Shown: positions 30,001 through 36,000 of the stretch, piece after piece
Layout of the letters: the number at the start of each line of letters is the position of its first letter
How positions within the stretch are numbered: position 1 is the first letter of the stretch
NCBI GenBank assembly: GCA_034780895.1
Contig: JAUZTB010000064.1
Location: 114,903,116-114,967,115, forward strand
Reading direction: 5' to 3'
DNA: 64,000 nucleotides
Source of the DNA: Rhynchobatus australiae
Lineage: Eukaryota
Made by a program: the position numbers

Positions 30001-33000
30001 ACTTGAAACAATGCGATACAGCAACATCTTTATTTTCTTCTTTCTGGTGTATTTTTTCACAGCTAGTCCAATAAACACCATTAACTCTAACTTCCACTGT
30101 TTCTATTCTTTTGATAAAGTACTTGCCAGGAAATCTAGCAGCTTGGGAGTCTCTATTTGTTCCATGTGTCCAACCTCAGTTGAATCACACGGCTTCCATC
30201 TCTTGCACTTGCCCTTGTATTATCTCAATCGGGAAGGTTCACACATAGTGTTCAATATTCCTATTTACACAAGGCATCCAATAGTTTCACCAACCAATAC
30301 TTCTGACATTGTATCTCACCATCTTGATCTCCCTAAGATGCTTGAAAAGTAATTGGTTACTCAAACTAATAACAAAAGTATTAAATAGTCGGAAAAAGCT
30401 TACAGCATCAGAACAGCATTTATTATTGTGGTTTCCTCCACAAAGATAGAGAGACTGGAGCTTCCCACAACAAACAATGCTGCACAGGCCCAGACACCAG
30501 TTAGTCTCATGATGCAATCCTTAAAGTGGTACATCTTTGAAGCAGCAATGATTGTTAACAGCCAATATTATATGTGATATATGTTTCCGATTAGTCGCTT
30601 TATCTCACCAAAACTTTTGTTTTAAACCCATGTGGTTGTGTGGTACAGAAGGAAAATAAATATTAAAATCAGCAGCAATGCAATGACGGTTATGACCCCA
30701 AATAGCCAAAGCACATAAGCATTTCTCCTGGTTACAAAATAAACAGCNNNNNNNNNNNNNNNNNNNNNNNNNNNNNNNNNNNNNNNNNNNNNNNNNNNNN
30801 NNNNNNNNNNNNNNNNNNNNNNNNNNNNNNNNNNNNNNNNNNNNNNNNNNNNNNNNNNNNNNNNNNNNNNNNNNNNNNNNNNNNNNNNNNNNNNNNNGAA
30901 GGACAAAAAACTGTACAGCATCACATCTCAGAGTGATGAGATTTTTGCTCTACCATATACAGTGTGCTTGTTATACCAATATTATAGAGTTTGCCCACTT
31001 TGGACCCACTTAAAGAAGATGTGTAATTGTCAAATACGAAAACCGAGGATTTTCAAGTTGCATCCATTACTGCTGGAGCATTTGATTTTTAAAAGATCAA
31101 ATTGCAACACATGGAGATAAGGTCAAGGAGAGATCAGCTGAACTTTGCAAGGCAGTTTCATGCCATTTTAATTGTTTAACTTGTCAGCCCACCAATGGAG
31201 CAGAAAGTGAGAAAAAGATAACTTATGGAGACGCCAGATCTTTTGTTTTTATAATATCTATGTCATAGCTTAAATCTGATTTCGGTTTGTCAACTTTTTT
31301 CAAGAAATTTTGGTAATAATTTTTTCCCTTTTTTTGCACTCTTTGTGCAGTTGAAGAAGGCTGATAATATACAAACCCAGAAAGGGTTGATCTACCACTT
31401 TCCCTGCATTTGTCATAATTCTTCAAGGTCTTTGGAAGCTGTGCAGTGTTGCTGAGAGTGATAATTATTCCTGAGTCAAATAAGGCAGTTGCATAATAAG
31501 GAAAAACCACTTTCAGGATTTGAGAGAATTCTGGCGGATTACATTTCAAATGTGCTGTTTAGGGAGTTTGCAGCACAGCCTGATGAGAGAAAAAAAAACT
31601 TCAATTACAATTTGGCTTTTGAAGCAAAGTTAATTACAGGGTTTTATATGCCAGTGTCAGTTTTCTAGATTTGCAGCATACTGTATGTCATGTTATTTAA
31701 TGTGGTTCAACCACTTGCCTGTCAAATGGCAATCATCTTTGTTTCTGAAATAAATGTTAGTGATGGGTAATATATGACAAATGTGTTTTAAGTACACACC
31801 AGTTAAGTATATAACCTGATACCTGTTACTGTTATAATCAGCTTAAAATACATTTCATTTTAGTTTAGCCAAGTGCTTGCACTGAGGAACAATTTATGAT
31901 ACATCTAAGTATCTTAGTGTTTCTCCAGTTTTGTCGGACATGCAGTAAAACCGGATAAAGTAAAAGTGCTTCAGCTTGTGTTAACCATCATTGCACTTGC
32001 ATCCTAAAGGAAAAGCTACATTTTAGAATACCATTAGTCATCAAGAAACAGATTCCACTCACAGCCTGTTTGTGTTTAAACAAAGGCAACAGAATTGGTG
32101 TGGTATGGCATAACATTCCCAGAAAATCCAGTGATTTGTACCACATCCACATGAACCTCAATCTACTGAATGTGTGCTACAAGCTTACATACAAACAATG
32201 GAAGTGGATCTGGATGTGAGCAAATCATTTGCAACAATAAAACACTTGTTCCACTTAAAACTATTGACAGTATTAGTACCAATGGTCTTGTAACTAAAGC
32301 TGCATCCTTAATGCAGAGTGATAGTTGCATTCAAATCAAATTGCGCTGTTCGTTAAAATAGATGACCAATGATTCTGATATAATAGCACAGCATAATTTC
32401 TAGATTTATATCAGTAACAGCTGACTAACAAAGAAATATCCAAAGTATCTTGCTTTAATATATTCAGACCAACATTGACACCAAACCAGAGGTTATTAGG
32501 ATTAAAGGTTATTAAGGTTTGGTTAAGGATGTAGTTATAAGGGCTGTATAGAAAGGGACAAAGATTTATGAGATGCAATTCCAGAAATTGATCTTCAAGA
32601 GATAGTACTGGGTTCTTACTATAGCTGGTAACAGTTGTGGTGTAGATCAAGTACTCTAATATTTGTGTAGTTACAACTGTCCATTCTGGATATGCATTTA
32701 CTTTAGCATTGTGTAATTAATTAATCAATGGAAAATTAATGTTGCTTCAGACCCAAAAAGGGAATATTTTAAAAAGTAGTTTCATCACTAAAATTACTTT
32801 CTTGACATGTTCTGTATCAATACAGTTCAACAAACTACTTGAACAAAACTAGTTTAGCAGAGTAATTCTAGAGAAACAAAGGACTGCAGATGCTGGAATC
32901 TAGATGAAAAACAACAACATGCTGGAGGAACCCAACAAGCCAGGCAGTATCCATGGAGGAAAGCAGATGGTCAATGTTTTAGGTCAAGACTTCCTGAAGA

Positions 33001-36000
33001 AGGGTTCAGATTTAAAATGTTGACCGTCTGCTTTTCTCCACAGATGCTGCCTGGTCTGCTGAGTTCCTCCAACATCTTGTTGTTATTTTATTAGCAGAGT
33101 AATTAGTTTTAAGGAAAAAATATTCCAGCTTTACATATAAAATTTTACATTTTCCTTTAACCTTGTAGCTTTTCTCCTGCAGTGCTTCTGAGCCATTATC
33201 CAGTTGAATGAGACATCACTCATCTGGTTCCATTCTTTTCTATTCAGTCAGATCCAAAAAAAAGCAAAGACTTCTTTGCTGCAGTCAGTGATCTATCCAT
33301 AGACCACCACCTGTTTCTCATCTATGTGCTACCACTTAGCAACAGCATCCAAAAACAAAGTGTCATTTTCCCCATGTAAGTTACTTTACCTCAACACCAT
33401 TTCTCTTAATTCCTTCATTATTTATTTCTAAATCATCAGACCAATTATCCAGCATACAGTGCTAGATGAGGAGAAATTCTTTTCAATAAATATGGGGAGG
33501 ACTGAAAGCATCTTCTTTGGTTTCCACCACAAACTCCATTCCTCAGACACTGACTCTATCTCTCTCCCTGCCAACTGTCTAAAATAGACTTAGACAGTTC
33601 GTAACTCCAGCATGAGAATCAGACATCATATCCATGTCATCTTTCAGACTATTTCTTCTTCCAGACCGTTGCTTGATTGCATCCTTGGCTTAGCTGCTCT
33701 GCTGAGATTATCCAAAACTCTGCTGCCCATGATTTTTCATTCATCCATTAGCTTTATGCTTGTTGACATATATGGGCTGTGGGCTATTCATGTCTTGATT
33801 ATAAAATTGCCATCCTTGTTCTTCCCCGTGATCTCACCTTTTTCAATCTCTGTAATCTCCTCTAGCCCCAATCAACTTCCCAATGTAAGTAGTTCTTCCT
33901 AGTTGTGTGGTACTTGTAGTGGTCCTTTTATTAAACAGGGTTAAGGAATAAATATGGAAAACAAATAAAACTGCATTTGCTTGAATCTGAAACAATAAAC
34001 AGAAATTTTGGAAGAATTCAACCAATCAAGCAGAATCTGTGGAAAGAGAAGCCAGTCCACGTTTTGGGTCATCAACCCTTCCTCAGAACTAGAGAAAGAG
34101 TGGAGAGTTCACAGTTTTCAAAGAAGAGCTTGGGGGAGGACGAAGGTATACGGAGATAAATTATGATAGATCAGGTGATGAGCATGAGTACTGACCATTG
34201 AAAAGTGGTGGGAAAGGGACATGGGCATAATAATGGGAAACGATGAGAGAGCAATTTGCCTGAAGTTGGAGAATGTAACATTCATTCCAGANNNNNNNNN
34301 NNNNNNNNNNNNNNNNNNNNNNNNNNNNNNNNNNNNNNNNNNNNNNNNNNNNNNNNNNNNNNNNNNNNNNNNNNNNNNNNNNNNNNNNNNNNNNNNNNNN
34401 NNNNNNNNNNNNNNNNNNNNNNNNNNNNNNNNNNNNNNNNNNCCCTGCGGACTGAGCACAGGTTCTCTGCGAAGTGATGAACCAAACAGCATTTGGTTTC
34501 TCCAGTGTAGAAGAGGCTACGTTGTGAACACCAAATGCAGTAGACCAGATTGGAAGAAGTGTAAATGAATCACTGCTCCACTTAGAGTGATTGTTTGGGC
34601 TCCTGGATGGTGGGAATGGATAGGTGTTACATCTCCTTTGGTTGCATGGGGAGATGCTGTGGAAGGGGGTGCTGAGTGGGGACAGAGACGTGGACCAGGG
34701 AGTCGTGAAATGAGCAGTTCCTGGAAGGAGAGGAGAGGGGAGGAGGTGGTGGAATCATGTTGGAGCTGGTGAACGTTTGCAAAGGATAATACATTGAATG
34801 CAAAGCCTGGTGGGGTGGAAGGTGAGTGCCGAGGAACTTTATCTTTGTGCTGTCCCAGCGGAGGGGAGGGGGCGGGGTGAGAGCAGAAGTGCAATAAGTA
34901 GAAGAAATGCAGTTGAAAGCTCCATCCACTATGGTAAAGAGGAAGCTATGTTGTAGGAAGAAGGAGAACGTCTCAGAGGTACCAGAGCAAAAGGCCTCAT
35001 CATTGGAACTAATGTAACAGAGACAAAGAAATAGCAACAAAGGAATGGGATCTTTACAGAAGGCAGGGTGGGAGGATGTATAGTCAAGGTAGCTGTGAGA
35101 GTATGTGGGCTTGTAAAATACATTAATGGCTTGTAAAGATGTTCATGGTTAACCTATCTCTTGGGATGCAGACAAAGAAATCCATAAAGAGGAGGGAAGT
35201 GTCAGGGATGGGTCACATAAATGTGAGAGCAGGGTGGAAATTGCCAGCAAAAGTGATGAAATTTTTGAATTCTGTGTGGAATGTGGCACCCATGCAGTTG
35301 TTAATATATTGTAAAAAAACTGAGGAAATGGTCCCAAATTACTCTGGGACAAGGACTGTTCCAGGGTATCCAACAAAAAGACAGGCATAGCTCAGGCTCA
35401 TGCGAGTTCCCATAGCTACACCTTTAATCTGGAGAAAGTGGAATCNNNNNNNNNNNNNNNNNNNNNNNNNNNNNNNNNNNNNNNNNNNNNNNNNNNNNNN
35501 NNNNNNNNNNNNNNNNNNNNNNNNNNNNNNNNNNNNNNNNNNNNNGTGGAATCAAAGGAGAAGTTGTTTAGTATAAGGACAAGTTCCACTGATCAAATGA
35601 ACATGTTATTGGAGAGGAAATGGTTGGGCTTCAATTTGAGAAAGAAAGGGAGGGCACTCAGACCTTCCTGATATGCCATGGAGGTATAAAGGGATTGAAC
35701 ATCCATGGTGAAGATGAGCAGTTGGGAGCAGGGAAATGGAAATGGTCAAAATAGCAGAGGACATCAGAGATGTCATGGATGTATGTGGGAAGGGATTGTA
35801 TGGGAGGGTAAGATAGAGTCAAGCTAGGAAAAATGTTTGGTAGGGCAAGAGCAGGCTGGAACAATAGGTCTACCAGGAATATATAAATGATCTGAATAAG
35901 TAGCATTAAAGTATGAAGCAATTCCTCAGTTTTCTCCAGCAAGGTTTCTGTATTTGCTGTTTCCCATAACAATACAAATATTATGCAGGTTGCCACACAC

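What the first reader, a model, noticed from the sequence alone, without database searches (positions are those of the whole stretch)
32854..33104. ORF-less palindromic PLE-terminus units inserted with their own TSDs (MITE-like hairpin retro-insertions)
Seen: at least four short elements consist only of two inverted copies of the ribozyme-bearing terminus: 2647-2880, 28970-29128, 32868-33090 and 55211-55400. Three have direct flanking duplications of different lengths (14 bp ttagcagagtaatt, 11 bp tgactaggtta, 8 bp cttttggt), and two interrupt older elements, so each is a discrete insertion event. The inversion junction differs in every copy and always falls in or next to the hammerhead motif. 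Known: variable-length TSDs indicate target-primed retrotransposition, and PLE insertions often have an inverted partial 5' pLTR. Inference: these are either extreme 5'-truncated-and-inverted PLE insertions templated by short ribozyme-processed RNAs, or a self-propagating non-autonomous (retrozyme-like) family. This is the best candidate for an under-described system here.
Basis: partly seen in the sequence, partly recalled or inferred. Interest (0 to 1): 0.72.

Follow-up and report, generated by a model that had tools for sequence, protein, structure and literature searches.

The report
Back-to-back Penelope retrotransposon end pairs
These short hairpin-shaped repeats are minimal insertions of a Penelope-like retrotransposon of a shark or ray, made of two head-to-head copies of its end, an arrangement already described for this class of element.

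Summary
The window has four short ORF-less units (2646-2879, 28970-29128, 32868-33090, 55211-55400). Each consists of two head-to-head inverted copies of one about 100-130 nt terminus and is flanked by its own direct duplication: 14, 11 and 8 nt exact, and 7 nt with one mismatch.

The terminus is the 3' end of an endonuclease-bearing Penelope-like element (PLE). Longer copies with the same end carry a decayed GIY-YIG endonuclease remnant upstream, and its closest relatives are shark, skate and stingray proteins. The CpG-corrected motif fits the minimal hammerhead described for metazoan PLEs, but Rfam finds no hammerhead in the present copies.

In all four hairpins one arm runs to the true 3' end and the other stops about 20-39 nt short. 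This is the one-sided "tail" known for PLEs. Inner ends cluster at the 5' edge of the hammerhead box, and none of the eight lies at the predicted cleavage site.

This is the published PLE architecture (inverted pLTR, pLTR, tail, variable duplications) in its smallest form. It is not a MITE or a retrozyme, and a ribozyme-cut template is not supported. Genome-wide copies, empty sites and RNA could not be checked.

The parts
32854..32867 (.). left copy of the 14-nt target-site duplication of the unit in the finding
   Evidence: exact repeat; flush; >=14 nt in 0 of 20000 random intervals
32868..32993 (-). tailed arm of unit h32868: the PLE 3' terminus read on the minus strand. The roughly 36-40 nt 'tail' lies at about 32868-32906 and is unpaired in the fold
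   Evidence: (HMM 124-242)
32994..33090 (+). tail-less arm of unit h32868. It starts at the degenerate CTGAAGA box and ends flush with the duplication, about 39 HMM positions before the true 3' end
   Evidence: HMM 113-203
33091..33104 (.). right copy of the 14-nt target-site duplication
2646..2779 (-). tailed arm of unit h2647 (tail about 2646-2679). Its inner end is at the perfect palindrome centre ctg|cag (2779|2780)
2780..2879 (+). tail-less arm of unit h2647. The flanks cacagtt (2639-2645) and caaagtt (2880-2886) form a 7-nt duplication with 1 mismatch
28970..29052 (-). tailed arm of unit h28970, with an internal deletion. The 8-nt duplication CTTTTGGT lies at 28962-28969 and 29129-29136
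29053..29128 (+). tail-less arm of unit h28970. It ends about 20 nt short of the true 3' end
55211..55306 (-). tail-less arm of unit h55211. Its inner end is 2 nt before the CTGATGA box. The 11-nt duplication TGACTAGGTTA lies at 55200-55210 and 55401-55411
55307..55400 (+). tailed arm of unit h55211 (tail about 55363-55400). It starts about 46 nt after the CTGATGA position and so lacks the hammerhead box
38391..39184 (-). reference copy c38: a simple 5'-truncated PLE insertion with a tail-less 3' end and a 12-nt duplication (1 mismatch; 39185-39196 / 38379-38390). It carries the GIY-YIG remnant at 38914-39078
45182..45850 (+). reference copy c45: a 5'-truncated PLE 3' part with the tail and a GIY-YIG remnant in 45215-45463. 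Protein-like similarity continues upstream of 45182
63547..63791 (-). reference copy c63: a 3' terminus with the tail. It is the only window copy that still matches CTGANGA..GAAAC (63650-63674)

Best explanation
Each of the four units is the product of one insertion event of an endonuclease-bearing Penelope-like retrotransposon (PLE) of a cartilaginous fish. The product is the smallest form of the usual PLE insert. It is a very short copy of the element's 3' terminus (hammerhead box to reverse-transcription start, about 127 nt), joined head-to-head to an inverted copy of the same segment. The whole is flanked by one target-site duplication.

Shown:
- The arms are the PLE 3' terminus.
- Each composite has its own flush duplication, and the four differ in length.
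- One arm ends at the true 3' end and the other about 20-39 nt earlier, in 4 of 4 units.
- The inner ends cluster at the 5' edge of the hammerhead box.

Inferred:
- The PLE enzyme nicked both target strands 7-14 nt apart and primed reverse transcription from both, as seen in vitro for the anole element PAc.
- The two cDNAs started at the two adjacent internal start sites whose spacing defines the 'tail'.
- Both ran to, or nearly to, the 5' end of a short template segment that begins about 5 nt before the CTGATGA box.
- One cDNA was then completed on the other, giving a head-to-head palindrome.

The short template may be the 5'-proximal pseudo-LTR (pLTR, the terminal repeat of a PLE) of a full-length RNA, or a transcript that starts there. 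Hammerhead cleavage is not needed and probably did not define the template end.
For: Identity as a PLE:
- Three longer copies with the same terminus (c34, c38, c45) carry a decayed ...LVYCIRC..LYIGETKRR.GDRFA.HL... frame about 450-575 nt upstream.
- phmmer with the 54-aa c38 piece found 58 proteins at E<=1e-3, the best at 6e-11.
- I scanned 9 of those 58 against Pfam. Eight list GIY-YIG, one of them at its cut-off. Three list RVT_1, one above its cut-off. P0015 (827 aa) has RVT_1 followed by a C-terminal GIY-YIG.
- The c38 piece aligns to P0015 residues 742-796 with 45% identity, E = 8e-15.
- The closest named relatives come from whale shark, little skate and Atlantic stingray.

Architecture:
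- The alignment of 15 arms and the HMM coordinates put the tailed ends at HMM 242 (235 in h28970).
- The tail-less ends lie at HMM 211, 203, 206 and about 220, each flush with the duplication.
- c38 shows that the tail-less end is also used in a simple insertion with its own 12-nt duplication.
- The duplications are far beyond chance.

Independent events:
- The arms of h32868 share 6 private variants in 88 columns, the most of all 91 arm pairs. The arms of h28970 share 3 in 41.
- Pairs from different loci average 0.84 per 100 columns.

Literature:
- PAc cleaves and extends both strands. It starts reverse transcription at two adjacent internal sites, and the tail is the sequence between them. 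It starts 111-118 nt past the start of hammerhead stem II. Hammerhead mutants still insert (PMC11167929, main text read). Here the tailed end lies about 120 nt past the start of stem II.
- Published PLE inserts show an inverted pLTR next to the pLTR, a 31-bp tail on one of the inverted pLTRs, 8-10 bp duplications and palindromes at the inverted junction (PMC3846280, passages).
- An inverted 5'-truncated copy and a one-sided 30-40 bp tail are described as typical (PMC8557442, passages).
Against: - No reverse-transcriptase domain and no full-length element lie in the window. Pfam on 147 of the 153 stop-to-stop frames of >=70 aa found none. So the 5' border of the pLTR and the real 5' end of the template are unknown.
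- Pfam did not recognise GIY-YIG in the window's own fragments. A word-indexed search for longer relatives found none.
- Frangieh et al. saw no difference in start site between the two strands in vitro. That does not predict the strict one-tail pattern seen here in 4 of 4 units.
- Arm-to-arm identity within a unit (80, 73, 73 and 59%) is not clearly higher than identity between units. Two units (h2647 and h55211) share 1 and 0 private variants between their arms.
- Later deletions at palindrome centres could have shifted the junctions of h55211 and h28970.
Confidence: 0.8

Rival explanations
1. The hairpins form a self-propagating non-autonomous family (retrozyme-like or SINE-like). A hairpin master is transcribed and copied by the PLE enzyme, so the one-tail architecture is inherited rather than re-made at each insertion.
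For: All four units share the same overall layout, and their tail-less outer ends lie within about 17 HMM positions of each other (203-220). Inheritance from a master would explain that as well as two fixed start sites do. Non-autonomous PLE derivatives exist: non-LTR retrozymes (preprint 10.64898/2026.07.22.740005, abstract and passages) and non-autonomous Chlamys elements (PMC8557442).
Against: - The junction differs in all four units.
- No pair of arms from different hairpins shares an excess of private variants. The best such pair has 2 in 52 columns, against 6 in 88 within h32868.
- The tail-less end also occurs in the simple insertion c38.
- There are no tandem head-to-tail copies in the window, and the hammerhead boxes are decayed.
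- Four old copies, 20-40% diverged, give little power.
Confidence: 0.1
2. The template was a short RNA whose 5' end was made by hammerhead self-cleavage.
For: The junctions lie in or beside the hammerhead box in 4 of 4 units. Self-cleavage of PLE precursor RNA has been proposed as the role of these motifs (PMC4209133, discussion read).
Against: The predicted cut follows GAAA-CGTC, about +28 from the C of the CTGATGA box. None of the 8 inner ends lies there, and 6 of 8 arms contain the complete box upstream of it. In vitro, hammerhead mutants of PAc insert normally, and no RNA-seq reads ended at the cut site (PMC11167929).
Confidence: 0.05
3. The palindromes arose at the DNA level. Either a second fragment inserted next to a first in the opposite orientation, or replication or repair folded one copy back on itself.
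For: PLE fragments are dense here: 16 loci in 64 kb. Long palindromes are also prone to rearrangement (general knowledge).
Against: One duplication flanks each whole composite, and no inner duplications were seen. The tail asymmetry is the same in 4 of 4 units. The centre of h2647 is a perfect, loop-free palindrome with both arms ending at the same base, as expected from two cDNAs run to one template end.
Confidence: 0.04
4. They are true MITEs moved by a DNA transposase, with the arms acting as terminal inverted repeats.
For: The overall look fits: a short, ORF-less, hairpin-forming unit with flanking duplications.
Against: The duplication length varies (14, 11, 8 and 7 nt). The ends are asymmetric, because one arm carries an extra 20-39 nt. 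The arms are co-linear with the 3' end of a retroelement that has a GIY-YIG remnant.
Confidence: 0.01

Closest known systems
Canonical EN+ Penelope-like element inserts with an inverted pLTR (for example Pen2a_Av of Adineta vaga, and Penelope/Poseidon elements of flies and fish)
   Same: - Head-to-head inverted copy at the 5' side.
- A 30-40 bp tail on one side only.
- Short duplications of variable length (8-10 bp reported; 7-14 here).
- A palindrome at the inverted junction.
- A min-hammerhead box in the repeat.

Sources: PMC3846280, PMC8557442, PMC4209133.
   Different: Nothing lies between the two repeats here: no ORF and no second direct pLTR. Each arm is only about 80-134 nt. The host is a cartilaginous fish. 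The published descriptions I read show the inverted repeat attached to longer or full-length copies.
PAc (Poseidon of Anolis carolinensis), studied in vitro
   Same: - The geometry matches. PAc starts reverse transcription 111-118 nt past the start of hammerhead stem II, and the tailed end here lies about 120 nt past it.
- A second start site one tail-length away.
- Both DNA strands are cut and extended.
- The hammerhead is dispensable for insertion.

Source: PMC11167929.
   Different: In vitro the two strands showed no difference in start site, whereas here every hairpin has one tailed and one tail-less arm. In the PAc paper the ORF starts at stem II. I did not establish an ORF start here.
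Dual min-hammerheads on opposite strands in Schistosoma mansoni
   Same: Two PLE-type minimal hammerhead motifs lie about 100-700 bp apart on opposite strands and are taken as remnants of truncated PLEs (PMC4209133).
   Different: That paper mentions them only in passing. The parts I read give no duplications, tails or junction positions.
L1 'twin priming' inversions
   Same: The second target strand primes a second cDNA, giving an inverted 5' segment within one duplication (recalled: Ostertag and Kazazian 2001, not read here).
   Different: In L1 the inverted and direct segments come from adjacent, different parts of one RNA. Here both arms cover the same segment, so two templates or a copy-back step are needed.
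Animal non-LTR retrozymes
   Same: Short, ORF-less, hammerhead-bearing units related to PLE pLTRs (10.64898/2026.07.22.740005; PMC7229834).
   Different: Retrozymes are head-to-tail tandem repeats processed to circular RNA. These units are single head-to-head pairs with decayed boxes.

Membership tests
EN+ Penelope-like elements (PLE) | GIY-YIG endonuclease at the C-terminus of the element's ORF | tested here: met
   Remnants lie in c38, c45 and c34, upstream of the same terminus. phmmer gave 58 hits, the best at 6e-11. BLASTP to the GIY-YIG region of P0015 gave E = 8e-15. Pfam on the window fragments themselves found nothing.
EN+ Penelope-like elements (PLE) | PLE-type reverse transcriptase in the same ORF | tested here: inconclusive
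   No RVT_1 hit in 147 of the 153 frames of >=70 aa in the window, because all copies are 5'-truncated. Relatives of the endonuclease piece (P0015, P0039, P0004) carry RVT_1 upstream of GIY-YIG.
EN+ Penelope-like elements (PLE) | Minimal type-I hammerhead in the terminal repeat: CUGANGA, an extra nucleotide before stem II, a G10.1-C11.1 pair, GAAA, and palindromic positions 15.2-16.2 (criteria from PMC4209133) | tested here: inconclusive
   The CpG-corrected majority motif meets all these points, with a 4-5 bp helix I. Only 1 present copy keeps both boxes. Rfam finds no hammerhead at E<=10. Activity was not tested.
EN+ Penelope-like elements (PLE) | A 30-40 bp 'tail' present at only one end of the insert | tested here: met
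   4 of 4 hairpins have one tailed and one tail-less arm. The difference is 31-39 HMM positions in three and about 20 in h28970.
EN+ Penelope-like elements (PLE) | An inverted 5'-truncated copy joined head-to-head, with the whole insert flanked by a short duplication of variable length | tested here: met
   duplications of 14, 11, 8 and 7 (1 mismatch) nt flank the composites.
MITE / DNA transposon | Duplication of fixed length and symmetric terminal inverted repeats | tested here: not met
   Duplication lengths of 7-14 nt. One end carries an extra 20-39 nt.
Non-LTR retrozyme | Head-to-tail tandem units, each with an intact hammerhead, giving circular RNA | tested here: not met
   No adjacent same-strand hits in the nhmmer census. 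The boxes are decayed. RNA could not be examined.
L1-type twin-priming inversion | The inverted and direct segments are different, adjacent parts of one template | tested here: not met
   Both arms align to the same HMM positions, about 108-211.

The most novel reading that the evidence does not exclude
The hairpins may be a genomic record of a concerted, two-template insertion by a dimeric PLE particle. Both target strands would be nicked and extended, and the two strands would use different reverse-transcription start sites, which would explain exactly one tail in 4 of 4 units. Both cDNAs would stop at a defined RNA 5' end about 5 nt before the hammerhead box. That position follows a polypyrimidine tract plus AG and lies within an initiator-like CCAGTCC. 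If this holds genome-wide, it fixes the pLTR border, the template 5' end and a strand rule that the in vitro work did not see.
Probability: 0.3. Interest if true: 0.55.

Novelty: new member of a known kind. Interest (0 to 1): 0.3.

Why it matters
For annotation: these units look like MITEs or microRNA-type hairpins. Three plant-miRNA Rfam models match 32917-33078, well below their thresholds. They should instead be masked as PLE fragments.

For mechanism: they are compact natural products, with all four ends readable, of a transposition pathway that is still only partly reconstituted in vitro. A genome-wide tally of their outer ends (tail or no tail) and inner ends would test three things: whether PLEs prime from both strands in vivo, where the template RNA begins, and whether hammerhead cleavage plays any part.

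Taken alone, the four copies add a chondrichthyan example to an architecture already described in rotifers, flies, fish and flatworms.

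Tried and rejected
- Rfam at gathering score and at E<=10 found no hammerhead. The only matches on the finding are hairpin-shaped miRNA models far below threshold.
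- Pfam on 147 of the 153 long frames (the last six, at 63513-64000, were not sent) found no RT or GIY-YIG. Pfam on the endonuclease fragments found none either.
- The word-indexed homology search gave nothing with the c45 endonuclease piece or with the flanking ORFs of h55211 and h28970. The exhaustive phmmer search did find relatives of the c38 endonuclease piece.
- I looked for duplications around the single copies. Only c38 gave one.
- I tested whether removing each hairpin plus one duplication copy restores a long reading frame. It does not: the longest spanning frames are 55-63 aa.
- I looked for paralogous empty sites within the window. None was found. The 71-nt match beside h2647 is a separate small duplication.
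- New nhmmer hits that start near the hammerhead box (507-634, 9055-9182, 5-155) looked at first like solo short copies. They are not. One belongs to a divergent lineage whose ORF end lies just upstream, one is divergent upstream of the box, and one is cut by the window edge.
- Full-text searches for two exact motifs of the repeat found no paper. Searches on Penelope plus shark, twin priming, or palindromic/non-autonomous found no description of these shark units.
- The genome-contig collection (bacteria and archaea only) was not scanned because it cannot hold this repeat.

Full report
**What is there.** The window is vertebrate-like DNA. It has a cadherin exon at 37260-38258 and 26 runs of N, which I left alone. 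At the finding's coordinates, an exact 14-nt direct repeat (32854-32867 and 33091-33104) brackets a 223-bp unit. The halves of that unit are inverted copies of each other: 75-nt arms, 81% complementary. As RNA it folds into one long hairpin with an unpaired 3' extension of about 40 nt (z = -12.7). The unit at 2646-2879 behaves the same way (z = -13.5).

Self-BLAST and an nhmmer census with a model built from 13 arms (21 hits with E<=1 at 16 loci) show adjacent opposite-strand hits at exactly four loci. Three have flush exact duplications of 14, 11 and 8 nt. In 20000 random intervals of the same sizes, a flush exact repeat of >=8 nt occurred once and one of >=11 nt never. The fourth unit is really 2646-2879. 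It has a flush 7-nt duplication with one mismatch (cacagtt/caaagtt), which 73 of 20000 random intervals also reach, so it is weak on its own.

**What the repeated arm is.** Single, non-inverted copies of the same sequence continue upstream. Three of them (c34 around 33961-34760, c38 at 38391-39184, c45 at 45182-45850) carry a decayed frame reading ...NLVYCIRC..LYIGETKRR.GDRFA.HL.. some 450-575 nt before the 3' end.

- Pfam did not recognise these short fragments, and a word-indexed search found nothing.
- An exhaustive phmmer search with the 54-aa c38 piece found 58 proteins at E<=1e-3, the best at 6e-11.
- Of the 9 I scanned, 8 list GIY-YIG (one at its cut-off) and 3 list RVT_1 (one above its cut-off). 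P0015 (827 aa) has RVT_1 followed by a C-terminal GIY-YIG.
- The window piece aligns inside that GIY-YIG region: 45% identity, E = 8e-15.
- The closest named relatives are from whale shark, little skate and Atlantic stingray.

The arm is therefore the 3' terminus of an endonuclease-bearing Penelope-like element of a cartilaginous fish. No reverse-transcriptase domain lies in the window (147 of 153 frames sent), because every copy is 5'-truncated.

**The hammerhead.** About 127 nt before the true 3' end, the copies carry remains of a CTGATGA box, one extra A, a GC-rich stem (GGGTC..GACCC), GAAA, then CGTC. A CAGT that can pair with the ACTG after the predicted cut precedes the box. Three positions vary as TG/CA pairs among copies, which is the signature of CpG decay, so I read the ancestral state with CG there.

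[quoted passage not shown] The present copies are decayed. Only one still matches CTGANGA..GAAAC (2 matches in the window against 0.87 expected, and the other is unrelated). Rfam finds no hammerhead at E<=10. 'Ribozyme-bearing' is therefore a statement about ancestry, not about these copies.

**Anatomy of the four hairpins.** Aligned in the sense orientation, every hairpin has one arm that reaches the true 3' end (..ccagattccagcatctgcagtctcttgtgtctcc and variants). The other arm stops earlier (..gtgtgttgct and variants), flush with the duplication. In HMM coordinates the tailed ends are at 242 (235 in h28970). The tail-less ends are at 211, 203, 206 and about 220. The extra piece is therefore 31-39 nt in three units and about 20 nt in h28970.

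Among the single copies, six have the tail (c0, c6, c34, c45, c49, c63). One, c38, lacks it and has its own 12-nt duplication with one mismatch, read directly. That duplication coincides with the point where homology to c45 and c34 begins. The tail-less end is thus a genuine alternative terminus. Both termini follow a similar TGTGT-rich stretch (direct reading).

**Junctions.** Counting from the C of CTGATGA as 0, the inner ends of the eight arms are:

| Unit | Inner ends | Note |
|---|---|---|
| h2647 | -5 and -5 | loop-free perfect palindrome, centre ctg\|cag at 2779\|2780 |
| h55211 | -2 and about +46 | |
| h32868 | about 0 and +4 | |
| h28970 | about +4 and +15 | further internal deletions |

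None of the 8 inner ends is at the predicted cleavage site (about +28), and 6 of 8 arms contain the box upstream of it. The single copies have 5' ends far upstream, from about -70 to beyond -700. In this window, inverted pairs occur only with very short arms.

**One event each, or a propagating family?** One duplication brackets each whole composite, and I saw no inner duplications, which argues against nested insertions. The arms of h32868 share 6 private variants in 88 columns, the highest of all 91 arm pairs, and those of h28970 share 3 in 41. Pairs from different loci average 0.84 per 100 columns, and no pair of arms from different hairpins stands out. h2647 and h55211 give 1 of 98 and 0 of 52, so this test has little power. 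Plain identities do not separate the models either. All four junctions differ. I find no sign of a hairpin master, but four old copies cannot exclude one.

**Mechanism.** The published picture fits closely.

- Arkhipova et al. 2013 (PMC3846280, passages) describe inserts made of an inverted pLTR, a pLTR, an ORF and a pLTR. They report a 31-bp tail on one of the inverted pLTRs, duplications of 8-10 bp and palindromes at the inverted junction.
- Craig et al. 2021 (PMC8557442, passages) call the inverted 5'-truncated copy and the one-sided 30-40 bp tail typical of PLEs.
- Frangieh et al. 2024 (PMC11167929, main text) show four things in vitro for the anole element. It cuts and extends both strands. 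It starts reverse transcription at two adjacent internal sites, and the tail is the sequence between them. The start lies 111-118 nt past the start of hammerhead stem II. Hammerhead mutants still insert.

Here the tailed end lies about 120 nt past the start of stem II. I therefore read each hairpin as follows. Staggered nicks 7-14 nt apart were made on the two strands. A cDNA was primed from each strand, one from each start site. Both ran to, or near, a template 5' end about 5 nt before the box. One cDNA was then completed on the other.

The steps after the nicks are inference. The strict one-tail rule (4 of 4) is not predicted by the in vitro report, which saw no strand difference in start site.

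**Comparison and novelty.** This is the known PLE insert architecture reduced to its two terminal repeats. The nearest mention of such minimal pairs that I found is one sentence on S. mansoni min-hammerheads 100-700 bp apart on opposite strands (PMC4209133). These units are not MITEs, because duplication length varies and the ends are asymmetric. They are not retrozymes, which are head-to-tail tandems (preprint 10.64898/2026.07.22.740005; PMC7229834). They are not L1-type twin-priming products, because both arms cover the same segment. I found no paper on these shark units in searches. I rate the finding as a new member of a known kind.

**The side claim about older elements.** On the minus strand beside h28970, the frames read like an LTR-retrotransposon polymerase. 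The Atlas gives RT_RNaseH_2 clusters at 0.90-0.92, which is a lead, not a test. Around h55211 the minus-strand frames read like a LINE ORF2 running across the insertion site once one duplication copy is removed. That is my reading, from recall of LINE motifs, and the Atlas lead is weak. Pfam and two homology searches found nothing, and no long frame is restored by excision.

**Limits.** No eukaryotic genome, read or transcript collection was available. Supplements of the cited papers were not opened.

Noticed in passing
window 6575-6608, 38489-38520 (-), 45680-45716, 49300-49332, 63675-63705 (-), 34087-34115 (-): In all six longer copies a polypyrimidine tract ending in YAG sits directly before helix I of the hammerhead box, like a 3' splice site. 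The consensus around it (CCAGTCC) also fits an initiator-like pattern. Cervera and De la Pena 2014 note that the D. virilis Penelope intron ends at the 5' end of helix I. The arms of h2647 begin exactly at this CAG.
   Followed up: partly
window 8813-9182 (+): A second, divergent PLE lineage. The frame 8813-9022 aligns to the last 83 residues of a stingray PLE-like protein, right up to its C-terminal NFR (E = 1e-5). A hammerhead-like box follows only about 40 nt after the stop, against roughly 350 nt in c38. Another divergent terminus lies at 507-634 (-).
   Followed up: partly
window 2562-2632 and 3672-3742: A 71-nt segment is duplicated at 96% identity. The copy beside hairpin h2647 is bracketed by atggagaca repeats (2545-2553 and 2632-2640), as if it were a small insertion of its own. 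The second copy lies just after an N run (3523-3622).
   Followed up: no
3' junctions of the 11 copies with a readable 3' end (for example 32867, 2645, 28969, 55401, 38390, 49459): The first base of the flank after the element's 3' end is A in 7 of 11 copies (AATT, AACT, ACCA, ACCA, AAAA, ATTC, ATAT). That would suit the A/T-rich cleavage preference reported for PLE endonucleases. It is a direct reading and was not tested statistically.
   Followed up: no
window 37260-38258 (+): A 333-codon open frame with three cadherin repeats (Pfam Cadherin, E = 6.6e-63). It is probably a large exon of a cadherin or protocadherin-type gene. The PLE copy c38 lies about 130 nt downstream of it.
   Followed up: no
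window 32917-33078, 32954-33040, 32940-33054: Three plant microRNA precursor models (MIR2118, MIR2118_2, MIR2275) match the hairpin at E = 0.8-9, far below their gathering scores. This is an effect of hairpin shape and could mislead automatic annotation.
   Followed up: yes
window 51074-51619 (+): A weak ALKBH8_N match (E = 6.4e-4, below its cut-off) in a 182-codon frame. From recall, this Pfam model often picks up LINE-derived sequence. Not examined.
   Followed up: no
window 9679-9719: A near-perfect 41-nt palindrome matches the stem of the MIR319 model on both strands (E = 0.02 and 4.5, below the gathering score), about 50 nt before an N run.
   Followed up: no
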